From the IMG/VR virus record IMGVR_UViG_3300033555_000001, positions 64,001 to 128,000 of that record: a DNA stretch of 64,000 nt; one strand, written 5' to 3'. The position numbers and the translations under genes are program-made. The notes below the pieces were generated by a model, which had not been told where the DNA came from, did not search any database, and saw only the letters and a program-made list of their open reading frames with translations. Positions 9,903 through 22,535 of the stretch are shown here, piece by piece. How positions within the stretch are numbered: position 1 is the first letter of the stretch; each line of letters starts with the position of its first letter. Source of the stretch: a virus (taxonomy: Duplodnaviria > Caudoviricetes).

Positions 9903-10511
9903 ATGGCGATCCCATTAAATCTCACACAGCTTTTTAGCAATAATGCCGTCAGTCTTTTAGTTGCCCCAATCTCTGAGCAGAGTACATCGCTTGAGGTAAT
10001 GGCAGGAATGGGCGAATCATTTCCTTCTCCAGGCTCAGGTGAATATTTTTTAATTACACTTGAAGATCAGGCAGCTACCCGCCGCGAAATTATCAAAGTT
10101 ACTGGTCGCGCTGGTGATATTCTTACTTTTGATCTTGCCGACCGCGGGTTAGAGGATACCGAAATAGCTGCTTGGTCAAGTGGCCTGGGCAATGACACAC
10201 TGGTTGATCACAGAATTACCGCTGGCACACTGCGCCGAGCAGCACAGCTGCCACTGGCTCAGTTTACCCCGGGTCAACAATCATTTAATCAGAATTATAC
10301 TCTTATTCCCGGAGCACAAACTGTGCTTGAACTTGAGATCAATATTGCCCCTGGCAGCTCTTGCCTCTATGTGGGTGGTCTCAGACAAAAACTAAACGTG
10401 GATTACGCAGAATCAGCGCCAAACAAATTAACTTTAGCTTATTCGCTGTCAGCTGAAGACATTGCACTTGGCCAGCACATCACCATTGACTTTGTACCAA
10501 TGGCGTCTTAA
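9903..10511 (+). CDS. Virion fibre/adaptor-associated structural protein
   Basis: FPSP-YFLITLED-REIIKVTGRAGDILT-RGLEDT motif; C-terminal LYVGGLRQ-DY domain. Confidence 0.65.
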   Translation: MAIPLNLTQLFSNNAVSLLVAPISEQSTSLEVMAGMGESFPSPGSGEYFLITLEDQAATRREIIKVTGRAGDILTFDLADRGLEDTEIAAWSSGLGNDTLVDHRITAGTLRRAAQLPLAQFTPGQQSFNQNYTLIPGAQTVLELEINIAPGSSCLYVGGLRQKLNVDYAESAPNKLTLAYSLSAEDIALGQHITIDFVPMAS

Positions 10512-10515
10512 CCCA

Positions 10516-10521
10516 TAAATA
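10516..10521 (+). promoter_or_regulatory. Late promoter box TAAATA
   Basis: Intergenic caTAAATAg followed by AAGGA RBS. Confidence 0.75.
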
Positions 10522-10547
10522 GCACGATCACTTAATAAGGAATTAAC

Positions 10548-11960
10548 ATGGCACTGACTAAAATCCGTGGTAATACGCAGATCCTTGATCTTAGCGTAAC
10601 CAATACACAAATTGCTGTAAAAGACGCGCAGAATCCGCTCGGTATTCTGCTCTCAAAAATTGAAGATGGCGAGCTGCTTGTTAAAAGTAATGGCTCAGTG
10701 CCATTTACTGCTCCAGTGTCTGGCGTTGTGCCAACGCTTAACACCCACCTGGCAACAAAGGGCTATGTTGATGGCGTTGCACAGGGTCTTGACATTAAGC
10801 GCTCGGTACGCGTTGTTACACAGGCAAACGTTATTCTGAGTGGAACGCAAACGGTTGACGGTGTTGCGCTTGCTGCAGGCGATCGCGTGTTGGTTGCTGG
10901 ACAAACTGTTGTTAGCGAAAACGGCATCTACACCGTTGGAACTGGTGTATGGGCTCGCGCAGAAGATGCTGACAACACACCAGCCGGAGAAGTAACCTCG
11001 GGCATGTTTACGTTTGTTGAAGAAGGCACCGTTTACGCCAGTTCAGGCTGGGTGCTAACCGCTGCAAACCCAATAGCGCTGGGAACAACTGATCTGACAT
11101 TTGCTCAGTTCTCTCAAGCCGGTGTTTTTATCGGCGGTGCTGGTCTTACTAAGCTTGGAAATACCATTGATGTGGTTTCCGCAAACGGCGGTATTGTTGT
11201 TAGCACTGACAATATTGCTCTTACGTTAGACGGCACTACTCTGGCAGTTGGCGCCACAGGTCTTAAGCTTGCAGACGTTGGCGCTGGCCAGGTACTAGTA
11301 GGCGATGGCGTTGGTCATGCACGTGGCGTAACAATTACCGGTGATATCACAATTGACCAAGCAGGCGTTGCTGTATTGACTGCTGGCTCCGTAGATGGTA
11401 ACGCAGTTGCTAATGGCTCACTGGCTCTGGCTAAGCTTGCCAGCGGTGGAGCTGGCCAATTAGTAGTTGTTGGCGCTGATGGAGTTCCTGCTTATACCAC
11501 TCTCTCAGGTGACGCAACAATTTCGGCAACTGGCTCGTTGCAACTTGGTGCTGGTTCAGTTAGTACAGTTGAACTCGCTGACGCCGCAGTAACACTTGCT
11601 AAGCTCACGCCTCTTGCTGTAGGCCAGGTTATTATCGGCACAACTGGTGGTACTAACACTGCAGTCACGTTAAGTGGTGACGTAACTATTACCGAAGCCG
11701 GAGTGGTGGTAATAAACGCAGCAACTGTTGTTAGAGTTGCAGATATTGTTACTCGTGAAATTCCAACCGGTATAGTAAACGGTATCAACGACACGTTCGT
11801 ACTGGCGTTTGCTCCAAAGGTCGGAAAAGAAACAGTATTCGTGAATGGCATCATGCAGGATTCAGGCGCTGGTAACGATTACACAATCACCGCCGACACA
11901 ATTACTATGCTGTATGCACTTACGGCTGGTGATAAAATCCGCGTGTCGTATTTCAAGTAA
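10548..11960 (+). CDS. Fibre-like structural protein with (S/T)GD(V/A/I)TI repeats
   Basis: Gly/Ala/Thr/Val-rich; ATKGYVD, GDRVLVAGQ-ENGIY; repeats TGDITID, SGDATIS, SGDVTIT; C-terminal VFVNGIMQ-DY domain. Confidence 0.8.
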   Translation: MALTKIRGNTQILDLSVTNTQIAVKDAQNPLGILLSKIEDGELLVKSNGSVPFTAPVSGVVPTLNTHLATKGYVDGVAQGLDIKRSVRVVTQANVILSGTQTVDGVALAAGDRVLVAGQTVVSENGIYTVGTGVWARAEDADNTPAGEVTSGMFTFVEEGTVYASSGWVLTAANPIALGTTDLTFAQFSQAGVFIGGAGLTKLGNTIDVVSANGGIVVSTDNIALTLDGTTLAVGATGLKLADVGAGQVLVGDGVGHARGVTITGDITIDQAGVAVLTAGSVDGNAVANGSLALAKLASGGAGQLVVVGADGVPAYTTLSGDATISATGSLQLGAGSVSTVELADAAVTLAKLTPLAVGQVIIGTTGGTNTAVTLSGDVTITEAGVVVINAATVVRVADIVTREIPTGIVNGINDTFVLAFAPKVGKETVFVNGIMQDSGAGNDYTITADTITMLYALTAGDKIRVSYFK

Positions 11961-11982
11961 TAAGCAATAAGCAGTAGAGATG

Positions 11983-12007
11983 GGGCGGCGTGTTATGCCG
12001 CCCTTTT
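11983..12007 (+). terminator. Intrinsic terminator
   Basis: GGGCGGC/GCCGCCC stem followed by TTTT. Confidence 0.8.
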
Positions 12008-12047
12008 ATGCAACACCTAATTCTAGCCATTAAGACAGAGGACAGCA

Positions 12048-15000
12048 GTGCGTACACAGATCCCAGGCAAGCAAATTCTTGATTCGACGGTCGATACCGC
12101 CGATCTAAAAGACACCGCTGTAACTGATGCTAAGCTATCAGATAGTGGCGTACTTCCAGGCGCGTACACAAAAGTTACCGTCGGCCAAAAGGGCCGTGTG
12201 ACGCTTGGGGAAAACCCGACTACTATAGCTGGATACGGTATTACTGATGCAGTTTCAGAAACTGATCCACGGTTCTTGATTTCTGTTATTACCGCCAAGC
12301 ATGAAGCTGGTAACCCATTGCACCGTCATTTGCACGGTACCCCCAATCAAATTATAACTACAGATGCAGGGCCTGGTCTCTCGCTCGATGTAGGTATTGC
12401 GCCTAACCCAATCATTCCTGGATCTGGCGGTCTTACTTTGCCGATAGGTACAACAGTAGAAAGACTCACTGGTACCAACGGTATGATCAGGTTTAACTCT
12501 GATTCACTCGAAGCTGAAATTTTTAGAGCCGAGTGGGACGCCGTAGTTATGAGCTCGGATAATAGGTTAGCGCCCGGCCAAACACTGATCGTGTCAAAAT
12601 TGCCGGGCAAGGGACAATTTTCCTCTATTGGCGCAGCGCTGGCCTCTATTACCGATAACAGTACGACCAAGCGATACACCATTAAAGTGCGTGCAGGAAC
12701 CTACATTGAATCAACTCTAACAATGAAGCGCTGGGTTTCAGTTGTTGGTGATTCAGGCTCCAGCACAGTTATTGAAAATAGCAATCCTGACTCGCACTTG
12801 ATTATGGGCGCTAATGACGCCAGGGTGCAAGGCGTTACACTAACCGGATCTACGGGAACCGGATTTGCAGCGGTGTATTTTAAAGACGCACCTGAGAATA
12901 CAAGCACTCGCATTATGTTGGTTGAGAATGTTACATTTGGCGCTAACTACCGGCACATGCACGTTGTTTCAACGGGTTCTATTACCGCCATTTTTGCAAT
13001 GACTTGTTTATTCGGCGGCACAGCCGTGTATAATCAGGCGCTTGTTGCTGAATCTTCTAATAATGGCTTTGCGCGAATCTTCTTAAAGAGCGGGCAGACT
13101 GCCAGCGCGACAGCGCCACTGCCGCAGGAATTTGCATATGCGACAGGTAAAGGCGCTGAGCTTGTCATGTCCGCGTGTCTGATTAGAATTTCTACATCAA
13201 CTCCGTCTGGTAAAGGCGTAAGAGTTAGGGATGGAGGTCTTATTAGGATAAGCGGCGTAACCATGCGCGGCTTTGAAATTGGAATCTTTGCCGAGAACGC
13301 CGGTGTTGCTCCCACCGTACAGTGCTATAACGTAGGTATGGAATCCAACACCACAGATTTGATGTTTGATCATCCGGGTACAGTTGGCACTTATTTTGGT
13401 ACGGCGGATCGCACTAAGGTAATAGATAATTCTGGAAAAGTGTCTATTTTGTACCTGGATCCCGTTGATCCAGGTATCAATATTGTGGGTTCTCTTAACA
13501 TTGGCACCACTGCATCTGCACTGACAAACGTAACAGATTTAATTTTAAAAACACCAGCGCTCGGCGTGCTCTCAGGCGGAATTATTTCTAGAGCCAGTGG
13601 GCTAGTAGTAGATGTTACTGGTGGCAAAGGGTACCTGTGGGCTAACAGCATGGTCAAGCGTGTTGTGTTTACCGGCGCGCAGTTTACAATTGCTGCAAGT
13701 ACTTCACCGTACATTTATGTGACCGAAGCTGGAATTATTGCATCGGCACTGTCTAAGCCCGATCCAACCACAACTATGTTAATCGGGCGCGTTGTGGCTG
13801 GAAGTTCAACTATCGCAACCTATGTAGATCTGCGGACGCGACTTGACGGGTGGGGAACAAACGTTGAACAGTACCTTAGAAATGTTATTGGCCCGGTGTT
13901 TATATCTGGTCAGACTGTAAGTGAAGGCACAGCACCGCTAAGCATAAACGTTTCTGCTGGTGTATGGAACTATGGAACACAGACCCGTCTGCCAAGCGAA
14001 ACTCTAGGTGGAGCGTTCTTTGACATGTCACGATCTGGTGGACAAGTTACTGTAATTGCGCGTACTACATTTAGCAATACTACAAGAACCGGCGCTACTG
14101 ACGAAGTGCCGCTGACAGCTGGGTACTTTGCAAAACACACGCTCTTAACTGCGTCTGACGGAGCCGGGCAGGCTTATTTTGTACAGCACGCACGTACTGA
14201 ATACGCAACTCTTGCGGCAGCCGTTGCCGCCCCACTGGATGGATTCTTGCTGGTTCCTGACAGCTCCCCGCCAATCGCATCGATTATTGTACAGCAAGGC
14301 AATCCAAACATTGTGCAGATCATTGACCTGCGCCCGTTTGTTGGGGGTGCACGCAGCGTCAGCTCTGCGGGCGGCGTTACAGTGCACGGCGATTTACTGG
14401 GGCTCTCAGCTGATAATCATTTACAGTACTTGCGAGTAGATGGCGTCAGAGCAATGCTTGGTGATTTGAATTTAGGTGCTAATTCAATCACCAACGTTGG
14501 AACAGTAAATGGTATTTCAATTACTACTCACGCTAGCCGCCATCAACCAAATGGAGCAGACCCGCTCTCTACTGGATCAGCAGTTGGCATTAGCACGAGT
14601 ACAGTAAATGGAATTGGCGTTTCAAACGACTTAGCCAGAGCTGATCACACGCACGCTTTGACTGGAGTGCAAGCCAGCAGCCCGGTTCTTTCGGGTATTA
14701 CTGCGCTCTCTGGAAACGGAATAATTGTAAAGTCTGGTACTGGTGCGGTTACGCGATTAATTGCTGGCACCGCAGGCAGAGTAATACTCTCTAATGCTGA
14801 CGGCGTGCTTGGAGATCCAACGATTGATCTAAGCACAGTAATAGCACCGGGTACGTTTACTACCGTTGCGGTTGATGCGTACGGTCGCGTTACAAGTGGA
14901 AGCGCCACACAGGACTGGACAACAATTACTGGCACTCCAACAACTTTGGCCGGCTATGGCATTGCAAATGCACAACCGTTAGATGCAGATTTAACTGCCC

Positions 15001-16523
15001 TTGCGGCAATAGGCACTACTGGTTTTTACATAATTGCAGGAAACGGTGCCAGCGTAACAAGATCACTAGTGGCGCCAACTGATGGCATCTCAATTGCTAA
15101 TTCAACTGGCCTGGCAGGTGATCCAACATTTAGCCTTACAAATGATCTGGCTGCCGTTGAAGCACTGATAACCACCGGAATTGCGGTACGAACTGGTGCA
15201 GATTCGTGGGCCACGCGAATTATTGCCGGACCAACTAGCGGTATTACAGTATCAAATGGATCTGGTGTTGGTGGAAACCCAACGCTGAATCTTGTTAATG
15301 ACTTAGCAGCACTTGAAGGATTAACAACATTCGGTTTTGCTGTTCGCACCGCCGCAGATACCTGGGCTACGCGAGTTATAGGCGGTACAGCTGGTAATAT
15401 TTTAATTACTAACGGAACCGGCATCAGCGGTGATCTGAGCGTTAACTTATCAACAGTTGGAATTGCTGGATCTTACCACTCGGTCACAACTGACGCATTT
15501 GGGCGTGTTACTGCTGGTACAAACCCGACAACGTTAGCTGGCTATGGTATTACTGATGCACAAGGCCTTGATTCAGATCTGACTGCATTAGCAAATACTG
15601 CAACCACCGGCGCCTATACAATCACTGGTGCAGGCACCAGTGCAACTCGCGTACTTACAGCTGGATCAACAAAAGTTTCTGTTGTAAACGGTTCTGGCGT
15701 TGTTGGTAATCCTACAGTAGACATTGTTGAAACTAATTTGGTGCTGAATAATATCGGCGGCGTACTTAGCACGACAAAGGGCGGCACAGGCTTAGCGGTT
15801 ATTGGCGGTGCAAATTCGTTGCTTGGCGTCAATCTTGCTGGAACTGCGCTTGAGTACAGCGGTTTTACAACTGGCACAAACCTTGTTTTAACGCGCTCAG
15901 CAAATCTTTACAACTTAGTGATTGCGGATAATCCAGTTTTTACCGGAACGGCTGGTATTGTTGTTCCTGCCTCAACTACTGCTGCGCGAGCAAATACCAC
16001 TGGCGCGGTTCGGCTGAATACTACGGTTAGTCAGTTTGAGGGTTTTACTGGCACTCAATGGGTACCGCTTTCAACGGCTGCTTCAGTCACTCAGTACTTT
16101 AAAGGTTCTGTACCGCAGACATCTGGCACCTCAATTGTGCCGTACGGTAATACTGCTCCAACCATAACTCAAGGTACTCAACTCTGGTCGCAAACACTTA
16201 CTCCTTTCTCTAATTCTTCTTCGGTAGAAGTTGAATTTACTACCATTGGGGACTTGTCGAGCTCCTCTGCGTATATAATTTTGTCAGCATTCAGGGGTAA
16301 CACACTTATTGGTATGTCTGTTTTGGCTTCTGGCAAACTAGCTGGTGCAGACTTTACAAGCTCGTTTGTTATTCGGGTTATTGATATACCTGGCACAACT
16401 ACACCGGTAACTTATTCCGTTCGTGTGGGCGGATCAGTAGGTACGTGGTACGTGGGCCGTGGGCAGAACGCAACATTTGGTGGCACTAACCCAAGCTATT
16501 GGACTATAAAGGAATTCTCATGA
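12048..16523 (+). CDS. Long tail fibre with pectin-lyase-like beta-helix region
   Basis: FSSIGAAL-IKVRAGTYIE beta-helix cap; repeats D-YGRVT-G-PTTLAGYGI-DA and NDLAA-E; GTG start after GAGGA; followed by a fibre chaperone. Confidence 0.85.
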   Translation: MRTQIPGKQILDSTVDTADLKDTAVTDAKLSDSGVLPGAYTKVTVGQKGRVTLGENPTTIAGYGITDAVSETDPRFLISVITAKHEAGNPLHRHLHGTPNQIITTDAGPGLSLDVGIAPNPIIPGSGGLTLPIGTTVERLTGTNGMIRFNSDSLEAEIFRAEWDAVVMSSDNRLAPGQTLIVSKLPGKGQFSSIGAALASITDNSTTKRYTIKVRAGTYIESTLTMKRWVSVVGDSGSSTVIENSNPDSHLIMGANDARVQGVTLTGSTGTGFAAVYFKDAPENTSTRIMLVENVTFGANYRHMHVVSTGSITAIFAMTCLFGGTAVYNQALVAESSNNGFARIFLKSGQTASATAPLPQEFAYATGKGAELVMSACLIRISTSTPSGKGVRVRDGGLIRISGVTMRGFEIGIFAENAGVAPTVQCYNVGMESNTTDLMFDHPGTVGTYFGTADRTKVIDNSGKVSILYLDPVDPGINIVGSLNIGTTASALTNVTDLILKTPALGVLSGGIISRASGLVVDVTGGKGYLWANSMVKRVVFTGAQFTIAASTSPYIYVTEAGIIASALSKPDPTTTMLIGRVVAGSSTIATYVDLRTRLDGWGTNVEQYLRNVIGPVFISGQTVSEGTAPLSINVSAGVWNYGTQTRLPSETLGGAFFDMSRSGGQVTVIARTTFSNTTRTGATDEVPLTAGYFAKHTLLTASDGAGQAYFVQHARTEYATLAAAVAAPLDGFLLVPDSSPPIASIIVQQGNPNIVQIIDLRPFVGGARSVSSAGGVTVHGDLLGLSADNHLQYLRVDGVRAMLGDLNLGANSITNVGTVNGISITTHASRHQPNGADPLSTGSAVGISTSTVNGIGVSNDLARADHTHALTGVQASSPVLSGITALSGNGIIVKSGTGAVTRLIAGTAGRVILSNADGVLGDPTIDLSTVIAPGTFTTVAVDAYGRVTSGSATQDWTTITGTPTTLAGYGIANAQPLDADLTALAAIGTTGFYIIAGNGASVTRSLVAPTDGISIANSTGLAGDPTFSLTNDLAAVEALITTGIAVRTGADSWATRIIAGPTSGITVSNGSGVGGNPTLNLVNDLAALEGLTTFGFAVRTAADTWATRVIGGTAGNILITNGTGISGDLSVNLSTVGIAGSYHSVTTDAFGRVTAGTNPTTLAGYGITDAQGLDSDLTALANTATTGAYTITGAGTSATRVLTAGSTKVSVVNGSGVVGNPTVDIVETNLVLNNIGGVLSTTKGGTGLAVIGGANSLLGVNLAGTALEYSGFTTGTNLVLTRSANLYNLVIADNPVFTGTAGIVVPASTTAARANTTGAVRLNTTVSQFEGFTGTQWVPLSTAASVTQYFKGSVPQTSGTSIVPYGNTAPTITQGTQLWSQTLTPFSNSSSVEVEFTTIGDLSSSSAYIILSAFRGNTLIGMSVLASGKLAGADFTSSFVIRVIDIPGTTTPVTYSVRVGGSVGTWYVGRGQNATFGGTNPSYWTIKEFS

Positions 16524-17035
16524 TTGTTGATTACATTACGGTTCTTGCCACTAAGTTCAAAGGTGTCATTGCGTCTGCCACGGATGCTACAGTGTACGAA
16601 AATATTGTTGTTGACAGTAGTGGGCTGCCCCTTCCGTCAAAAGAAGATCTTGATGCGGCGGTGCGCGTTGCAACACGCGAAGAAATGTGGAAACTAATTC
16701 AGGCCGAGCGAGATAAACGCAGCCAGTCCGGTGGCTACAAGGTTGGCACAAATTGGTTTCACTCAGATCAGGCATCGCGCACGCAGCAAATTGCTCTTGT
16801 CATTCTTGGAGCAGGGTTACCGCCAGGAATTATGTGGAAAACCATGGGCGGTACTTTTGTCACTATGACTCAGCAACTCGCAGGTCAGATTTTTAGCACC
16901 GCCGTGCAAACTGATCAACAGATTTTTGCTGCGGCTGAACAGCACCGCGGTGCAATGGCATCAGTTGCAAATCCAGAAACGTATAACTACAAGACTGGTT
17001 GGCCACAGTCGTACGAAGATTCGCTGGCAGTATGA
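16520..17035 (+). CDS. DUF4376-type tail fibre assembly protein
   Basis: AERDKR-GGYKVGTNWFHSDQASR, WKTMGGTFV; ATGA overlap, start moved to 16520. Confidence 0.8.
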   Translation: MIVDYITVLATKFKGVIASATDATVYENIVVDSSGLPLPSKEDLDAAVRVATREEMWKLIQAERDKRSQSGGYKVGTNWFHSDQASRTQQIALVILGAGLPPGIMWKTMGGTFVTMTQQLAGQIFSTAVQTDQQIFAAAEQHRGAMASVANPETYNYKTGWPQSYEDSLAV

Positions 17036-17055
17036 GCCGTTTGAACTAATTTGTT

Positions 17056-17061
17056 TAAATA
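17056..17061 (+). promoter_or_regulatory. Late promoter box TAAATA
   Basis: Intergenic, within a GAACTA/TAGTTC inverted repeat. Confidence 0.65.
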
Positions 17062-17177
17062 GTTCACGCAGTGCAGGATAATTTACTGCGCACAAAGAAT
17101 CCAGAGTATGTGCCAATAAGGTTAGGTGTGTGCTTTATTTTTGCAATTAAATTAGTACGCGTATCAACAGGGTTTAA

Positions 17178-18404
17178 ATGAAATCTTACGGAGAACTTGA
17201 TTTTGAAGGTGGTGGTGGCATTATAGATCTTAGGATTCAGGTTGGCACGGCGTTTCCAACGGGGGTTGAAATAAAGGACGGCTATTTATTTTATCTTAAG
17301 ACCGGCATTATTGCAGATCCTTACGTGTATAGAAATAACACTTGGATTAAAATTCAGGTCAGTGACTTGAATTTAGATCAAGAAGTAAGAGCACTGTTAA
17401 TTCGCGGCGTGCTCTCTAATACCATCACAAATACAGCACAGCAAAAAATACTTCGCACACCAACCGCTGATGTGCCAGGTATGACGCTTACTCCCCGCGC
17501 AGGCTCACACTTAATAACGTTTAACTCGCAATACAAGAGCACCACCAAGGAAATAACCATGCAGGCTGTAGCAGATCTGTTAATGGCGTACACGTATTTG
17601 ATGGCCGTACCAAACACAAACACCACCCATACTGCAACATTTGGCAGCGGAGAAACACTAGACCCAGGCGTGTACCTTGTTGCGGCTGCTGGCTCACTAG
17701 CCGGGGTTTTAACGCTAGACGGCAAAAACAATCCAAACTCCGTGTTTATTTTTAAATTTGGCGGCGCTTTCTCAACAACTGCGACAGCGTCTGTTGTGCT
17801 GATTAACGGTGCGCAAGCGGCAAACGTATATTGGGTTGTTGAGGGTGCTGGCTCGTTAGGCGCCCTAAATAATTTTAAGGGCACTATGTTGGTTCACGAG
17901 GCGGCAGCATCGGCGGCTGACGGGTGTACTATTGAAGGCAGGCTGTTTTCAACGTCTGGAGCTGTTGCAATAACAAACGCAACTATTACTGTCCCGGTAC
18001 TGGGTCCCTTTTCTACACCAAGCTCGGATCTGGGGCTGTTAGAAACCTACGGCATCTTCACTAGCTTGGGCGCGATTTCAAACACTGGTGTAACTTCCAT
18101 AACGGGCGACATTGGCACTAATGGTGGGGCTATTGCAGGTTTTGAAGCTTCGACTATATCCGGCTCGATAACTATTCCTGGGATGAAGGCTGCACTGATT
18201 ACCCTAAGCGTGTATCAAAACAATGTTTTAATTGGTGACTCTGTTAGATTGCTTAATAGTGCTAGTGATGTTGGCGGTGCCGTGGCGCACTTGCAGACTA
18301 CTGCAAATATCCTGGCTGGGCAGAGCATAAGCTTAAAAATACGCGTGTTGTTAGGCGTCATAGAGCTTGGGAACAGAAATTTAACGGCAATAAAATTAGC
18401 GTAA
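17178..18404 (+). CDS. DUF3494 ice-binding-like domain protein (permuted)
   Basis: TLDPGVY, LTLDG-NPNSVFIF, LINGAQAANVYWVV, GRLFST-GAV, ISNTGVTSITGDIG. Confidence 0.85.
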   Translation: MKSYGELDFEGGGGIIDLRIQVGTAFPTGVEIKDGYLFYLKTGIIADPYVYRNNTWIKIQVSDLNLDQEVRALLIRGVLSNTITNTAQQKILRTPTADVPGMTLTPRAGSHLITFNSQYKSTTKEITMQAVADLLMAYTYLMAVPNTNTTHTATFGSGETLDPGVYLVAAAGSLAGVLTLDGKNNPNSVFIFKFGGAFSTTATASVVLINGAQAANVYWVVEGAGSLGALNNFKGTMLVHEAAASAADGCTIEGRLFSTSGAVAITNATITVPVLGPFSTPSSDLGLLETYGIFTSLGAISNTGVTSITGDIGTNGGAIAGFEASTISGSITIPGMKAALITLSVYQNNVLIGDSVRLLNSASDVGGAVAHLQTTANILAGQSISLKIRVLLGVIELGNRNLTAIKLA

Positions 18405-18429
18405 CTAGAAAAGATTAGGAGTTCTAGGT

Positions 18430-19077
18430 ATGAAAAAAATAATCATAAGAGCGTTTTCTAAAGTAGTAACAGCTATTGGCAAGGTAGAGTGGATGTCAAA
18501 GAGCCGGATTTCGGCATCGGATACTGATAAGATAAGAGATTTACTTACATCTAACTATTTTATTATCTTGACCCGTCGTCGCAATCACCTGAGCACGTAC
18601 TTTACTAACCTTGCTGATTTTGTGCTCAGCGGGCGTTGGGGTTACTGGTCGCATGCGCTAATGAACCTGGAAGACGAGGTTAAAAGAGACAGTGACTTTA
18701 AAATTGTGCCACTCTCCAAGACCGCGCTTATAGAGGCAACAAGTGCTGGAGTACATAAGACACCTTTTGAACAGGTGTTTGACGTGCACTCAGCTGTCCT
18801 GATGAAGCCTAAACTGATGCCGCTGGATCATTGGACGTTAATATTAGATCGCGGCAAAGAACAGCTTGGAAAGCCGTACGATACGCTGTTTAATATTGCA
18901 GACGCAAATTCTCTTAGCTGTGTAGAACTGGTACGCTATATATTGCAGGGCGAACCAAACTATGAAATAAATTTTGCTAACTTTGAAGCCCTTATTAAAA
19001 AGAGTAAAAACTTGTCGCCGCAGATGATATTTGACTGTGGTGATTTTGAAGTAGTGTTTGAAACAAGAGTTCGTTAA
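18430..19077 (+). CDS. Permuted papain-like NlpC/P60 enzyme (YiiX/YaeF family)
   Basis: WSHA (His), IEAT-GV, LGKPYD...LSCVELV (Cys after His). Confidence 0.85.
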   Translation: MKKIIIRAFSKVVTAIGKVEWMSKSRISASDTDKIRDLLTSNYFIILTRRRNHLSTYFTNLADFVLSGRWGYWSHALMNLEDEVKRDSDFKIVPLSKTALIEATSAGVHKTPFEQVFDVHSAVLMKPKLMPLDHWTLILDRGKEQLGKPYDTLFNIADANSLSCVELVRYILQGEPNYEINFANFEALIKKSKNLSPQMIFDCGDFEVVFETRVR

Positions 19078-19493
19078 TGGCAATTAATTACTGCACAGTT
19101 TCAGGTTCAACAATCAACACGTTCTGTAGTCCGCAGCGTGCGGCGGTGCTGGCCAGACTGATTGCAGTACTGCACCCAAGTATTGAGCCGCCGATCTTAC
19201 GGCCCGCACACGTCGGCGGCGGTGGTGGGCTGGCTGGTAACCCGGTACGAAACGCGCCAGCTAATCAGCAAAGGTATGCGAACTACCAGCAGTCACCACG
19301 CTGGGAGCCACCGGTTATTTCACCTGAGAGTGACCGAATTATTGTTACCGCCAAATTTCAGAATTTAAGTGGAACTGATCAGCAAGACGTATTGCAGCGT
19401 TTGGATATTGTGTACGTAACTAACCTGCGTGTTGAAGCTGTCACGGTGGATGTAAATATTAACAACCTCACAGTAAATCATTCTCTAGACTAA
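19077..19493 (+). CDS. Hypothetical protein
   Basis: TAATG coupling with the previous stop. Confidence 0.7.
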   Translation: MAINYCTVSGSTINTFCSPQRAAVLARLIAVLHPSIEPPILRPAHVGGGGGLAGNPVRNAPANQQRYANYQQSPRWEPPVISPESDRIIVTAKFQNLSGTDQQDVLQRLDIVYVTNLRVEAVTVDVNINNLTVNHSLD

Positions 19494-19494
19494 T

Positions 19495-20163
19495 ATGCTG
19501 ATTACAAACTCTTCCAATAAACTTACCTTTGACGTAAACATTCAAGGTACTGCAGCGCTGCCAACCGTGCGCTGCATGGTAGGAGAATACCCAAGCTTAT
19601 CATTTGACGCAACACGTCTCCCTACTGGCGAGTATGAAGTAATCATAGATTTGCCAGCAAACTTTCGTGTTGGGCCACAGCCGTTTAAAGTCGAGGTGCT
19701 TTTGAACGGGCGGCTGTTTACGCCAATTAATAAAAGCATTGACGTAAGTGCAGGTGATCTGGCGGAAGAGAGTATTCCTGTCCCAGCGCCAAAGCCAGTG
19801 CCGAGCCCGGAACCAATTAAAGAACCAATTAAAGAACCAATTAAAGAACCAACCCCACAACCACCACCAGTTTCCGCAGCAAAAAAAGAGTCGCTGCTTT
19901 CCGCTCTTGAAAATTCAGTTACTGCAAAAAAAGATAAACACACAGCAGTGCCGTCAGTTGCCGTACAGGAATCAATTAAAAAGAAACCAGCACTGGTTAT
20001 CCCAGCGCAGCAAAAGCCAGTGGCGCCAATTAAGTTTACAATGGCTGACATTGCTAATGAATCGTATACCCCAGCGCCTGCAGTAAAGCGGCCAGTAAAA
20101 AGTGCAGAACATACTAAAAATATCCCAGTTACCCTTATCAAGGGTGAGATCATATACCGGTGA
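19495..20163 (+). CDS. Hypothetical protein with Pro/Lys-rich linker
   Basis: Small beta N-domain followed by low-complexity P/K/A region. Confidence 0.75.
   Translation: MLITNSSNKLTFDVNIQGTAALPTVRCMVGEYPSLSFDATRLPTGEYEVIIDLPANFRVGPQPFKVEVLLNGRLFTPINKSIDVSAGDLAEESIPVPAPKPVPSPEPIKEPIKEPIKEPTPQPPPVSAAKKESLLSALENSVTAKKDKHTAVPSVAVQESIKKKPALVIPAQQKPVAPIKFTMADIANESYTPAPAVKRPVKSAEHTKNIPVTLIKGEIIYR
19810..19851 (+). repeat. Perfect 12-bp tandem repeat (GAACCAATTAAA)x3.5 encoding EPIK
   Basis: Read directly from the sequence. Confidence 0.95.
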
Positions 20164-20166
20164 AAC

Positions 20167-20340
20167 ATGAAAACATTAAGCGACAATGTCGTAACTAAAG
20201 AAGATTTACTCGTCCTTACAGCTGAAGTGGCAAAACAGGCAAAGTTACAAATTGAAGAAACAAATAGGGTAAGAATGCTTACTGCTTTATTTTTTCTGGC
20301 TAATTTAGCATTTACTGCTGCGCTGCGCTTTCTGCCATGA
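20167..20340 (+). CDS. Small protein with C-terminal transmembrane helix (57 aa)
   Basis: MKTLSDNVVT...MLTALFFLANLAFTAALRFLP; stop overlaps the next ATG. Confidence 0.65.
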   Translation: MKTLSDNVVTKEDLLVLTAEVAKQAKLQIEETNRVRMLTALFFLANLAFTAALRFLP

Positions 20341-21395: not shown

Positions 21396-22535
21396 ATGAG
21401 CCAGTTCCCGGTTATTCGCACGCTGAGCGATATCAGCCCTGCTATCGAAAGCAATCATCAAATCAGAGTAAAAGTTGACGACAGCACCGGACATACTGTT
21501 GTTTGCTATATGGTGCAGGACGAGGATACTTTCTCCGGTGATTCGCCTGAGATAGAGCGGGAGTGCCGCGGTATTACTTTTGACAGCGCTGGTAATATTG
21601 CTGCCCGCACCATGCACAAGTTTTTTAATGTTGGCGAGCGGCCAGAGACCATGCCTGATCAGATTGACTGGTCAAAAGTTGATCGAATCATGGAAAAGCG
21701 TGATGGTTCCATGGTGACTCCAGTGCTGACACCACTCGGCCCGTCGCGGTTTAAGTTTAAAACTAAAAAGACTTTTACTTCTCCAGAATCAATTTGCGCG
21801 GACCAGCAGGCAGTATATCAAATTAGATATGACTGGATCGTTGACATGTTGGAGAAAGGATTGACTCCAACCTTTGAAATGACTTCGCCCCGATTTCCAA
21901 TTGTGGTAATGTACAGCGCAGACGAGCTCACACTGCTGCACATCAGAGAAATGGTATCTGGTCGGTATTTGACTGCGGAAGAAATAGTTTTTACGCACCC
22001 GCCGTTTCCAGTTGTAGAAAATATGGTTGCCCAGTTCTGCAGCGAGAGCACACCAAGTCAAGTACAGTGGGAAAAGCTCCGAGTGTTTGCCGAGACTGCC
22101 ACAGGCATGGAAGGCGTTGTTATTCAGTTTCACGGCGGTGAGATGATGAAACTCAAGACTGCTTGGTACATTAGCTTGCACCACTCGGTTGTGTTTACAC
22201 GCTGGAGAGATGTGGCTCGTACTGTGTGCGCTGATCAGGCTGACGATCTCAAAGCTGCATTTACAATGGTGGGGCGTTCAATTGAACCGATCTTGAAAGT
22301 TGAGCGTCGGATTATGAGCGAGATCTCAAATACACAAAACTCTGTAGAAGAACAGGTTAAAATCGGTCGAGCTCTTGATTGGTCGATCAAAGATATGGCA
22401 CTAGCGTTAAGAGATCATCCGCTATTTCCACTGATCATCCGAGAATTTAAGGGTCAAGAGGTAGACTACATGGAACACTATGTTAAAAACTATCTTGATG
22501 ACGGCTGGAGTTTGGAAGTAATTCCTGCTGTTTAA
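21396..22535 (+). CDS. rnlA: RNA ligase 1 (T4 Rnl1/RnlA family)
   Basis: RECRGITF, HKFFNVGE, motif I EKRDGSM, EGVV, KLKTAWY. Confidence 0.92.
   Translation: MSQFPVIRTLSDISPAIESNHQIRVKVDDSTGHTVVCYMVQDEDTFSGDSPEIERECRGITFDSAGNIAARTMHKFFNVGERPETMPDQIDWSKVDRIMEKRDGSMVTPVLTPLGPSRFKFKTKKTFTSPESICADQQAVYQIRYDWIVDMLEKGLTPTFEMTSPRFPIVVMYSADELTLLHIREMVSGRYLTAEEIVFTHPPFPVVENMVAQFCSESTPSQVQWEKLRVFAETATGMEGVVIQFHGGEMMKLKTAWYISLHHSVVFTRWRDVARTVCADQADDLKAAFTMVGRSIEPILKVERRIMSEISNTQNSVEEQVKIGRALDWSIKDMALALRDHPLFPLIIREFKGQEVDYMEHYVKNYLDDGWSLEVIPAV

What the first reader, a model, noticed from the sequence alone, without database searches (positions are those of the whole stretch)
17178..18404. Circularly permuted DUF3494 ice-binding domain in a late (virion) gene
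Canonical DUF3494 begins with the LG...F-SNTG-T-ITGDIG segment and continues to TL-PGVY...GRL. Here the order is reversed: about 17553-18000 holds AVADL...PGVY...GRLFST and about 18027-18182 holds LGLLETYGIF...ISNTGVTSITGDIG. The unit is inserted between two halves of a beta-sandwich (DVPGMTLTP...FNSQY / ITLSVYQN...GNRNLT). A phage-displayed ice- or surface-binding protein next to the tail fibres would be unusual.
Basis: partly seen in the sequence, partly recalled or inferred. Interest (0 to 1): 0.72.

Follow-up and report, generated by a model that had tools for sequence, protein, structure and literature searches.

The report
Rearranged ice-binding domain on phage fibre
A giant T4-like phage from an ice sample encodes, next to its tail-fibre genes, a three-fold knob protein carrying a complete but re-ordered copy of the fold that cold-loving microbes use to grip ice, so the virus may stick to ice itself, though this is untested.

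Summary
ORF 17178-18404 (408 aa) matches Pfam Ice_binding/DUF3494 (E 2e-42) in two pieces in reversed order. Residues 121-274 match canonical positions 48-200, and residues 284-325 match positions 1-43. Re-ordering the pieces in silico gives one end-to-end match.

The permuted domain (aa 123-335) sits in a loop of a TNF/C1q-like jelly roll (aa 79-122 plus 336-408). The best structural match for that jelly roll is the PLTL lectin (Z 14.4). It is predicted to trimerise through sandwich residues only.

The domain is 42-47% identical to IBPv, a proven antifreeze protein. It keeps IBPv's flat ice-binding rows of Ala and Ser. The genome is a 311-kb T4-related phage whose only sequencing-run holder is an ice metagenome.

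The gene follows three fibre genes and a DUF4376 tail gene. Virion location and ice binding are inferred, not shown.

The module is not unique. At least 116 further 50%-identity clusters end in it. They include secreted Bacteroidota "phage tail-like trimer" proteins, and at least 9 IMG/VR phage loci also carry it.

This scan reached the same architecture before on other phage DNA. The papers I searched describe viral PF11999 genes only as host-protecting auxiliary genes, and none mentions the permutation or a fibre tip. I class it as a new variant of a known kind.

The parts
17178..18404 (+). Whole gene: 408 codons plus stop. It has no signal peptide.
   Evidence: GC 46.4% and GC3 43.4%, like its neighbours.
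17178..17411 (+). N-terminal region, aa 1-78. The model is of low confidence here. I presume it is the stalk or attachment part. It is not a PTL_trimer domain.
   Evidence: pLDDT is below 60. A PTL-like HMM gives no hit. P0075 aligns from aa 31.
17412..17543 (+). First half of the TNF/C1q-like jelly roll, aa 79-122 (four strands).
   Evidence: sandN HMM E 4.5e-16.
17544..18002 (+). Permuted DUF3494 part 1, aa 123-275: the long alpha-helix plus solenoid coils 2-6, matching canonical profile positions about 48-208.
   Evidence: VIA-align against 5uyt_B: Z 21.9, rmsd 1.2.
18003..18026 (+). Linker, aa 276-283, joining the old C-terminus to the old N-terminus. It is colinear with the inter-domain linker of two-domain IBPs.
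   Evidence: query 126-331 aligns to 5uyt_A 56-264.
18027..18182 (+). Permuted DUF3494 part 2, aa 284-335: canonical first coil and cap, matching profile positions 1 to about 45.
   Evidence: Block-mean pLDDT 87-97.
18183..18401 (+). Second half of the TNF/C1q-like jelly roll, aa 336-408 (five strands). It carries most of the predicted trimer interface.
17056..17061 (+). TAAATA, a possible T4-type late promoter core, 122 nt upstream of the ATG.
   Evidence: The distance is atypical, so this is weak support only.
9903..17035 (+). Upstream same-strand fibre module: genes 9903-10511, 10548-11960 and 12048-16523 (1491 aa), plus the DUF4376 tail gene 16499-17035.
   Evidence: PHROG tail-fibre and tail hits. 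Pfam DUF4376 E 2e-16.
21396..22535 (+). T4 gp63-type RNA ligase / tail-fibre attachment catalyst, downstream on the same strand.
   Evidence: phrog_562 E 4.8e-58.

Best explanation
The gene encodes a homotrimeric fibre-tip (knob) protein of the virion. A TNF/C1q-like jelly roll makes the three-fold core. From one of its loops (after the fourth strand) each subunit projects a complete DUF3494 beta-solenoid. The chain order of that solenoid is circularly permuted, so that its two ends meet at the insertion point.

The solenoid is the ligand-binding part. Its most likely ligand is ice. Three flat Ala/Ser faces per knob, on several fibres per particle, would tether virions to ice-crystal or brine-vein surfaces. 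Ice-adhering Bacteroidota live there, and local control of ice growth might also protect the particle.

Shown here: the gene, the permutation, the insertion, the folds, the family and the ice-metagenome origin.

Inferred: trimer formation (prediction only), virion location (neighbourhood only) and ice binding (homology and conserved face only).
For: Permutation and insertion

Folds
- The ice-binding part aligns to 5uyt_B with Z 21.9 and rmsd 1.2.
- The split sandwich aligns to 9ib6_A (PLTL lectin) with Z 14.4.
- The sandwich also matches phage fibre heads: cyanophage A4 (9k09, Z 12.2), the A-1(L) short tail fibre CBD (8ke9, Z 11.8), the phage 1358 RBP and PRD1 P5.

Trimer
- Score 0.70 against a best control of 0.00.
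- That mark was reached by 20 of 30 proteins solved as pairs of one chain, and by 1 of 23 solved as single chains.
- The three runs agree in at least 90% of contacts, and the partner pLDDT is at least 90.
- All confident contacts lie in the sandwich, apart from residue 330.
- TNF-like trimers are solved structures, so this pass may only reflect likeness.

Relation to real antifreeze proteins
- phmmer against 5uyt_A (IBPv) gives E 5e-71 at 42-44% identity.
- IBPv shows thermal hysteresis of 2.11 C at 50 uM (PMC5673226).

Ice-binding site, mapped by hand from the alignment and the paper's numbering
- IBPv's first row (A41-A212-A193-L174-A147 in domain A; A253-G429-A410-A391-A364 in domain B) corresponds to A299-A262-A243-A224-A197 in this protein.
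- Position 224 is Ala, where the weak domain A has the hindering Leu174.
- The second row is S301, A264, S245, S226 and S199.
- Four of the row-1 Ala are near-invariant: 133-139 of the 146 modules have Ala there. A299 is Ala in 85 of them.

Pattern of variation
- The ice-binding core is more conserved (1.7-1.8 bits) than the sandwich (2.2 bits).
- The most variable spots are a sandwich loop (aa 362-368) and the two domain junctions, not the flat face.
- This fits an unchanging ligand.

Origin and context
- The only run holding this DNA is labelled ice metagenome.
- The gene lies in the fibre module.
- It has no signal peptide, unlike its bacterial homologues.
- In other proteins the module always sits at the extreme C-terminus, on proteins of up to 1731 aa.
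- It occurs after a tape-measure gene in L007 and near a portal gene in L014.
Against: - There is no measurement of ice binding, expression or virion content.
- The small-residue rows are a general feature of DUF3494. They could be kept for folding or packing.
- PMC5673226 notes that ice-binding-site sequences diverge between family members, so activity cannot be read from sequence.
- Bacterial members of the permuted family come largely from temperate freshwater Bacteroidota MAGs.
- Those members form multi-paralogue arrays, which looks like an adhesin repertoire.
- Distal heads of phage fibres normally bind host surface molecules.
- The orientation of the flat face relative to the trimer axis could not be read, because the tools gave no coordinates.
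- The TAAATA motif lies at an atypical distance from the start codon.
Confidence: 0.42

Rival explanations
1. It has the same trimeric fibre-tip architecture, but it is an ordinary receptor-binding protein. The solenoid, or the sandwich loops, would recognise a host (probably Bacteroidota) surface polysaccharide or protein, and ice would play no part.
For: - The gene lies in the fibre module.
- TNF/C1q-like heads serve as lectins and phage receptor-binding domains: 9ib6, 2wq4, 8ke9, 4l92.
- Bacterial homologues form arrays of five paralogues with swappable heads behind a 'phage tail like trimerisation' domain.
- Many members come from temperate lakes.
- DUF3494 is attached to many adhesin-type scaffolds, such as autotransporters, collagen and Ig domains.
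- Sandwich loop 362-368 is the most variable site, as expected for a diversifying receptor contact.
Against: - The inserted domain is the most conserved part, and its flat face carries no aromatic or charged sugar-binding residues.
- Its closest characterised relatives are all true ice binders.
- The phage comes from ice.
Confidence: 0.35
2. It is not a virion part. It would be an auxiliary gene made during infection to cryoprotect the host cell or the lysate, as proposed for viral PF11999 genes in polar viromes.
For: PMC11515562 reports three Arctic vOTUs with PF11999 genes and reads them as host cryoprotection. This phage also comes from ice.
Against: - There is no signal peptide or lipobox, so the protein would stay in the cytoplasm. 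Bacterial homologues are secreted.
- The trimeric head architecture and C-terminal tip position are typical of fibres.
- The gene sits between fibre genes and the fibre-attachment ligase.
Confidence: 0.1
3. The solenoid is only a rigid structural decoration or spacer of the knob and has no ligand of its own.
For: Beta-solenoids are common structural elements of tailspikes.
Against: - Over 146 diverged modules the exposed rows stay conserved as small residues.
- The complete fold, including the first coil, has been kept through a permutation.
Confidence: 0.06

Closest known systems
IBPv, the two-domain DUF3494 antifreeze protein of Flavobacteriaceae isolate 3519-10 (PDB 5UYT; PMC5673226)
   Same: - It is the best sequence and structure match: E 5e-71, 42-44% identity, Z 21.9.
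- It has the same helix-plus-triangular-solenoid fold.
- The same Ala row and Ser/Thr row lie on the ice-binding face.
- The query runs colinear with IBPv from domain A's helix, across the linker, into domain B's first coil.
   Different: - IBPv is a secreted monomer with two canonical-order domains.
- Here one domain's worth of sequence is in permuted order, nested in a trimeric jelly roll, in a phage, without a signal peptide.
- Neither the tree nor the HMM scores show a special affinity to domain A or domain B.
TNF-like lectins PLTL (PDB 9IB6) and BC2L-C N-terminal domain (2WQ4), and C1q/TNF-like heads of phage fibres (cyanophage A-1(L) short tail fibre CBD 8KE9, cyanophage A4 9K09, PRD1 P5 1YQ5)
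   Same: The split sandwich superposes on them (Z 14.4 to 9.7, with 110-120 residues aligned). A homotrimer through the same sheet is predicted.
   Different: Sequence identity is only 10-17%. In none of these matches does the aligned jelly roll (about 130-150 residues) carry a comparable insert; here a 213-residue domain sits in one of its loops. Sugar-binding residues were not compared.
Bacteroidota secreted proteins annotated PF26696 PTL_trimer + PF11999 Ice_binding (e.g. P0063, Flavobacterium sp. W20_MBD1_R3)
   Same: They have the same sandwich / permuted ice-binding domain / sandwich module, at 37-50% identity over aa 87-407.
   Different: They have a signal peptide and the 'phage tail like trimerisation' N-domain, and they lie in chromosomal paralogue arrays. 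The phage protein has neither N-terminal feature.
Virus-encoded ice-binding-like (PF11999) genes in Central Arctic vOTUs (PMC11515562)
   Same: These are viral genes of the same Pfam family from icy habitats.
   Different: They are reported as auxiliary metabolic genes that cryoprotect the host. The passages I searched (terms PF11999, ice-binding, antifreeze) mention no domain order, trimeric head or fibre context.
MpIBP, the RTX ice adhesin of Marinomonas primoryensis (from my own knowledge, not checked here)
   Same: The concept is shared: an ice-binding domain at the distal tip of a long surface fibre, used to hold the bearer to ice rather than to prevent freezing.
   Different: The ice-binding fold is unrelated (a Ca-dependent RTX solenoid). 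It is bacterial and not trimeric.

Membership tests
DUF3494 / Ice_binding (PF11999) | Sequence match above Pfam's gathering score | tested here: met
   145.5 bits against a cut-off of 28.7, E 2.3e-42. The whole-genome scan gives the same two pieces.
DUF3494 / Ice_binding (PF11999) | Right-handed triangular beta-solenoid with a long alpha-helix alongside | tested here: met
   AF2 block-mean pLDDT is about 90 or higher through aa 121-270. VIA-align gives Z 21.9, rmsd 1.2 and 154 aligned residues against 5uyt_B, and Z 18-20 against 7bwx, 3wp9 and 6bg8. This is a predicted model, not a solved structure.
DUF3494 / Ice_binding (PF11999) | Canonical chain order: first coil, helix, coils 2-6 | tested here: not met
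   The order here is helix, coils 2-6, linker, first coil. It is a circular permutant, so it is a variant of the family and not a canonical member.
DUF3494 / Ice_binding (PF11999) | Flat exposed face built of small residues (Ala/Gly row plus Ser/Thr row), as mapped by mutagenesis in IBPv | tested here: met
   By alignment, row 1 is A299/A262/A243/A224/A197 and row 2 is S301/A264/S245/S226/S199. Flatness itself was not measured, because no coordinates were available.
DUF3494 / Ice_binding (PF11999) | Ice binding (thermal hysteresis, recrystallisation inhibition, ice shaping) | not testable with these tools
   This needs the recombinant protein and ice assays.
TNF/C1q-like jelly-roll trimers | Two-sheet jelly-roll fold | tested here: met
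   Z 14.4 against 9ib6_A (118 of 134 residues, rmsd 2.4). Z 10-12.8 against Pgp3 C-terminal domain, EDA-A1, C1q heads and BAFF. Foldseek probability 1.00 against 2wq4.
TNF/C1q-like jelly-roll trimers | Homotrimer through the inner sheet | tested here: met
   This is a prediction only. Score 0.70 against a best control of 0.00. The mark was reached by 20 of 30 solved one-chain pairs and by 1 of 23 single chains. Runs agree in at least 90% of contacts, and pLDDT is at least 90. The pass may rest on likeness to solved TNF-like trimers.
PTL_trimer (PF26696) fibre-like proteins of Bacteroidota | N-terminal 'phage tail like trimerisation' domain after a signal peptide | tested here: not met
   An HMM built from 40 bacterial N-domains gives no hit in P0001 at E<=1. 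The precomputed Pfam list for P0001 shows only PF11999. The N-terminus has no hydrophobic stretch.
Phage tail-fibre / receptor-binding tip proteins | Encoded in the tail-fibre module | tested here: met
   The gene follows three fibre-type genes and a DUF4376 tail gene, and precedes a gp63-type fibre-attachment ligase, all on the same strand.
Phage tail-fibre / receptor-binding tip proteins | Present in the virion, at the distal end of a fibre | not testable with these tools
   The phage is uncultured. P0001 matches no PHROG family, and tblastn finds nothing in 50,697 phage records.

The most novel reading that the evidence does not exclude
Ice itself is the 'receptor'. The phage would use trivalent ice-binding fibre tips to anchor virions on ice-crystal and brine-vein surfaces. 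That would make this a virus structural protein that targets the solid phase of its habitat rather than a host molecule. The permuted, trimer-displayed DUF3494 module would then be a large undescribed class of ice adhesins shared by phages and Bacteroidota.
Probability: 0.3. Interest if true: 0.85.

Novelty: new variant of a known kind. Interest (0 to 1): 0.6.

Why it matters
DUF3494 is the most widespread ice-binding fold. In the papers I could search it is treated as a canonical-order domain that is soluble, secreted or carried on a surface scaffold. In viruses it appears only as a supposed host-protecting auxiliary gene.

Here the fold is re-ordered, nested in a trimerising TNF-like head and placed where phages keep their adhesins, in a phage that comes from ice.

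If the knob binds ice, phage particles could concentrate at ice surfaces together with ice-adhering hosts. That would change how virus-host encounter in glacier, lake and sea ice is pictured.

It would also offer a compact natural trivalent ice-binding scaffold. The permutation is a clean natural example of how a domain is made insertable by bringing its termini together.

The question is directly testable with one recombinant protein.

Tried and rejected
Searches among known phages and structure libraries
- megablast of 12000-20200 and tblastn of P0001 against 50,697 phage records gave no match. The window's own record may be hidden there.
- PHROGs has no family for P0001.
- BFVD and AFDB cluster searches found DUF3494 and C1q parts separately. 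Neither found a representative with the whole architecture at TM above 0.4.

Origin by duplication of a tandem IBP
- The colinear alignment across the IBPv linker suggested it.
- An ML tree of 163 C-part domains left the permuted group unresolved at the base.
- Permuted-family HMMs score tandem domains A and B alike.
- The route therefore stays a hypothesis.

Searches within this genome and the related loci
- The phage genome has no paralogue of any part of the gene.
- The other DUF3494 loci show no synteny with this window.
- GC and GC3 show no sign of recent acquisition.

Promoter
- There is no TATAAATA near the gene.
- A sigma-70 scan was at chance level.
- The only candidate is TAAATA at -122.

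Calls that failed or gave nothing useful
- The search for related loci on genome contigs with alignments A1 and A2 failed for lack of a conserved stretch. The single protein P0063 worked.
Habitats of the other phage loci are therefore unknown.
- A paper search for strain and sample names returned only unrelated hits.
- Paper searches for DUF3494 with 'circular permutation', 'phage' or 'tail fiber' found nothing relevant.

Not possible with these tools
- The position of the flat face relative to the trimer axis could not be read from the tool output. I make no claim about its exposure beyond noting that no confident contact involves it.

Full report
**The gene**

Window 17178-18404 (+) is an open frame of 408 codons. 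Its composition matches its neighbours (GC 46.4%, GC3 43.4%). The window is bases 64001-128000 of a linear IMG/VR virus record of 310,728 bp, estimated 87% complete. Earlier notes of this scan call it a T4-related jumbo phage. The one sequencing run that holds the region is labelled "ice metagenome". It is probably the source sample.

**The permutation**

- Pfam Ice_binding (PF11999) matches at E 2.3e-42 in two stretches. Residues 115-271 cover profile positions 51-208. A downstream piece covers the start of the profile.
- Against the PDB the best hit is 5uyt_A (E 5.4e-71), the two-domain antifreeze protein IBPv. Query residues 126-331 run colinear with chain residues 56-264. That span covers the helix and later coils of domain A, the inter-domain linker and the first coil of domain B.
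- I built an HMM from canonical-order domains. The native protein gives HMM 48-200 at aa 121-274, then HMM 1-43 at aa 284-325. A string re-ordered in silico gives one end-to-end hit at 212 bits.
- The core residues of the first coil listed for IBPv domain B (I247, L254, N256, V262, V266; PMC5673226) align with I293, I300, N302, I308 and I312 here. The moved coil should therefore still cap the solenoid. I mapped this by hand.
- In IBPv the first coil stacks on the last coil: Ala41 lies next to Ala212 in the ice-binding row. Joining the old ends is therefore natural. Cutting between the first coil and the helix leaves the new ends together, which is what an inserted domain needs. This last step is inference.

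**The host domain**

- An AF2 model built on 47 homologues has mean pLDDT 82. Block means are mostly above 85 from residue 81 on, with one loop near 361-370 at 59.
- VIA-align against 48,161 chains puts residues 125-326 on IBPv (Z 21.9, rmsd 1.2).
- Over model range 79-408 the two flanks align together on TNF/C1q-like jelly rolls. Matches include PLTL lectin 9ib6_A (Z 14.4, 118 of 134 residues), the Pgp3 C-terminal domain, EDA-A1, C1q heads and BclA.
- Phage receptor heads also match: cyanophage A4, the A-1(L) short tail fibre CBD, the phage 1358 RBP and PRD1 P5. Foldseek agrees.
- The sandwich exists without the insert. In P0121 and P0247 its two halves lie 8-19 residues apart. Residues 123-335 are therefore a domain insertion after the fourth strand.
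- Three copies of residues 78-408 are predicted to form a trimer. The score is 0.70 against a best control of 0.00. That mark was reached by 20 of 30 solved one-chain pairs and by 1 of 23 single chains. The runs agree in at least 90% of contacts, and pLDDT is at least 90.
- Every confident contact lies in the sandwich, apart from residue 330. TNF-like trimers are solved structures, so the pass may only reflect likeness.

**The family**

- Of 120 first-search hits, 50 share the order sandwich half / IBP C-part / IBP N-part / sandwich half. Another 34 are canonical tandem IBPs.
- A profile of the junction unique to the permuted form (first coil plus second sandwich half) finds 449 cluster representatives at E<=1e-10. 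Of the best 145 new ones, 116 end in the module, and in 106 of these it lies within 5 residues of the C-terminus. Protein lengths run from 167 to 1731 aa.
- Fifty of them carry the Bacteroidota N-domain PF26696. The ESM Atlas names it "phage tail like trimerisation region".
- Flavobacterium sp. W20_MBD1_R3 has five such paralogues in a row.
- In IMG/VR, 178 viral contigs encode a DUF3494 relative. Nine loci have the permuted module, and L010 has it twice.
- L007 carries the module after a tape-measure gene. L014 carries it near a portal gene, and L013 near a fibre gene.
- The phage protein has neither a signal peptide nor a PTL-like domain.
- The tree of C-part domains does not resolve where the permuted group arose.

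**Context in the window**

- Upstream on the same strand lie three fibre-type genes and a DUF4376 tail gene. Downstream lies a gp63-type RNA ligase / fibre-attachment catalyst.
- A TAAATA motif lies 122 nt upstream. In this genome the motif peaks 30-39 nt before starts. Late expression is therefore plausible but not shown.

**What it binds**

For ice:
- The closest characterised relatives are all ice binders.
- IBPv's first ice-binding row aligns with A299, A262, A243, A224 and A197.
- Position 224 is Ala, where IBPv's weak domain A has the hindering Leu174 (PMC5673226).
- The second row is Ser, Ala, Ser, Ser, Ser.
- Four of the row-1 Ala are near-invariant across 146 modules. The solenoid is more conserved than the sandwich. 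The most variable sites are sandwich loop 362-368 and the two junctions.
- This pattern suits a ligand that does not evolve.
- The phage comes from ice.

Against ice:
- The small-residue rows are general to DUF3494.
- Activity cannot be read from sequence (PMC5673226).
- Many bacterial members are from temperate lakes.
- Fibre heads usually bind host molecules.

My estimates are about 0.42 that it is an ice-binding virion knob and 0.35 that it is an ordinary host-receptor binder. I give 0.1 to a non-virion cryoprotectant and 0.06 to a purely structural part.

**Novelty**

- The searched papers hold no account of a permuted DUF3494 or of the fold on a phage fibre.
- Viral PF11999 genes are reported only as auxiliary genes for host cryoprotection (PMC11515562).
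- This scan's earlier agents reached the same architecture on other phage DNA. I confirmed the architecture independently here.
- It is a new variant of a known kind, not a unique oddity.

Noticed in passing
proteins P0121 (3737 aa) and P0247 (2103 aa), not in the window: The TNF/C1q-like sandwich without the ice-binding insert occurs in groups of three tandem copies. In P0121 these are 101-213, 223-339 and 348-460, and again at 778-1138 and 1456-1810. They may be single-chain pseudo-trimers.
   Followed up: partly
window 12048-16523 (+): This 1491-aa fibre protein has recurring ...TLAGYGITDA... motifs and multiple PHROG structural or fibre hits. By eye, its last ~150 residues also look like a jelly-roll head.
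   Followed up: no
window 18430-19077 (+): The gene directly downstream gives a weak, below-cut-off hit to Peptidase_C92, the YaeF/YiiX permuted papain-like amidase (E 2.6e-5). It might be a cell-wall or lipid amidase linked to the fibre module.
   Followed up: no
window 19495-20163 (+): This 222-aa ORF has a Pro-rich linker containing EPIK repeated three times. It matches no Pfam or PHROG family.
   Followed up: no
window 21396-22535 (+): A T4 gp63-type RNA ligase / tail-fibre attachment catalyst (phrog_562, E 4.8e-58) closes the fibre region.
   Followed up: no
IMG/VR loci L016-L087: IMG/VR holds 178 viral contigs that encode DUF3494 relatives. Most of the 80 loci fetched show no permuted order; the N-part HMM, where it hits, lies before the C-part. 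Several are very large proteins with two ice-binding domains: L017 (1134 aa), L068 (1637 aa) and L070 (2621 aa). L010 has two adjacent permuted paralogues.
   Followed up: partly
genome C1:49574-51889 (-), outside the window: A 772-aa ORF matches the second half of the HMM built from Bacteroidota PTL-type N-domains (E 2.5e-9). It may be another fibre with Bacteroidota-like stalk repeats.
   Followed up: no
ESM Atlas clusters: An Actinomycetota cluster joins collagen triple-helix repeats to Ice_binding. A Verrucomicrobiota cluster joins an autotransporter to Ice_binding. These are other ways of displaying DUF3494 on a stalk or surface anchor; the collagen form would be trimeric.
   Followed up: no
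locus L004 (Flavobacterium sp. W20_MBD1_R3): The array holds two PTL_trimer-only genes and five PTL_trimer + permuted-IBP paralogues. It lies directly after a gene for a protein with a T9SS sorting domain.
   Followed up: partly
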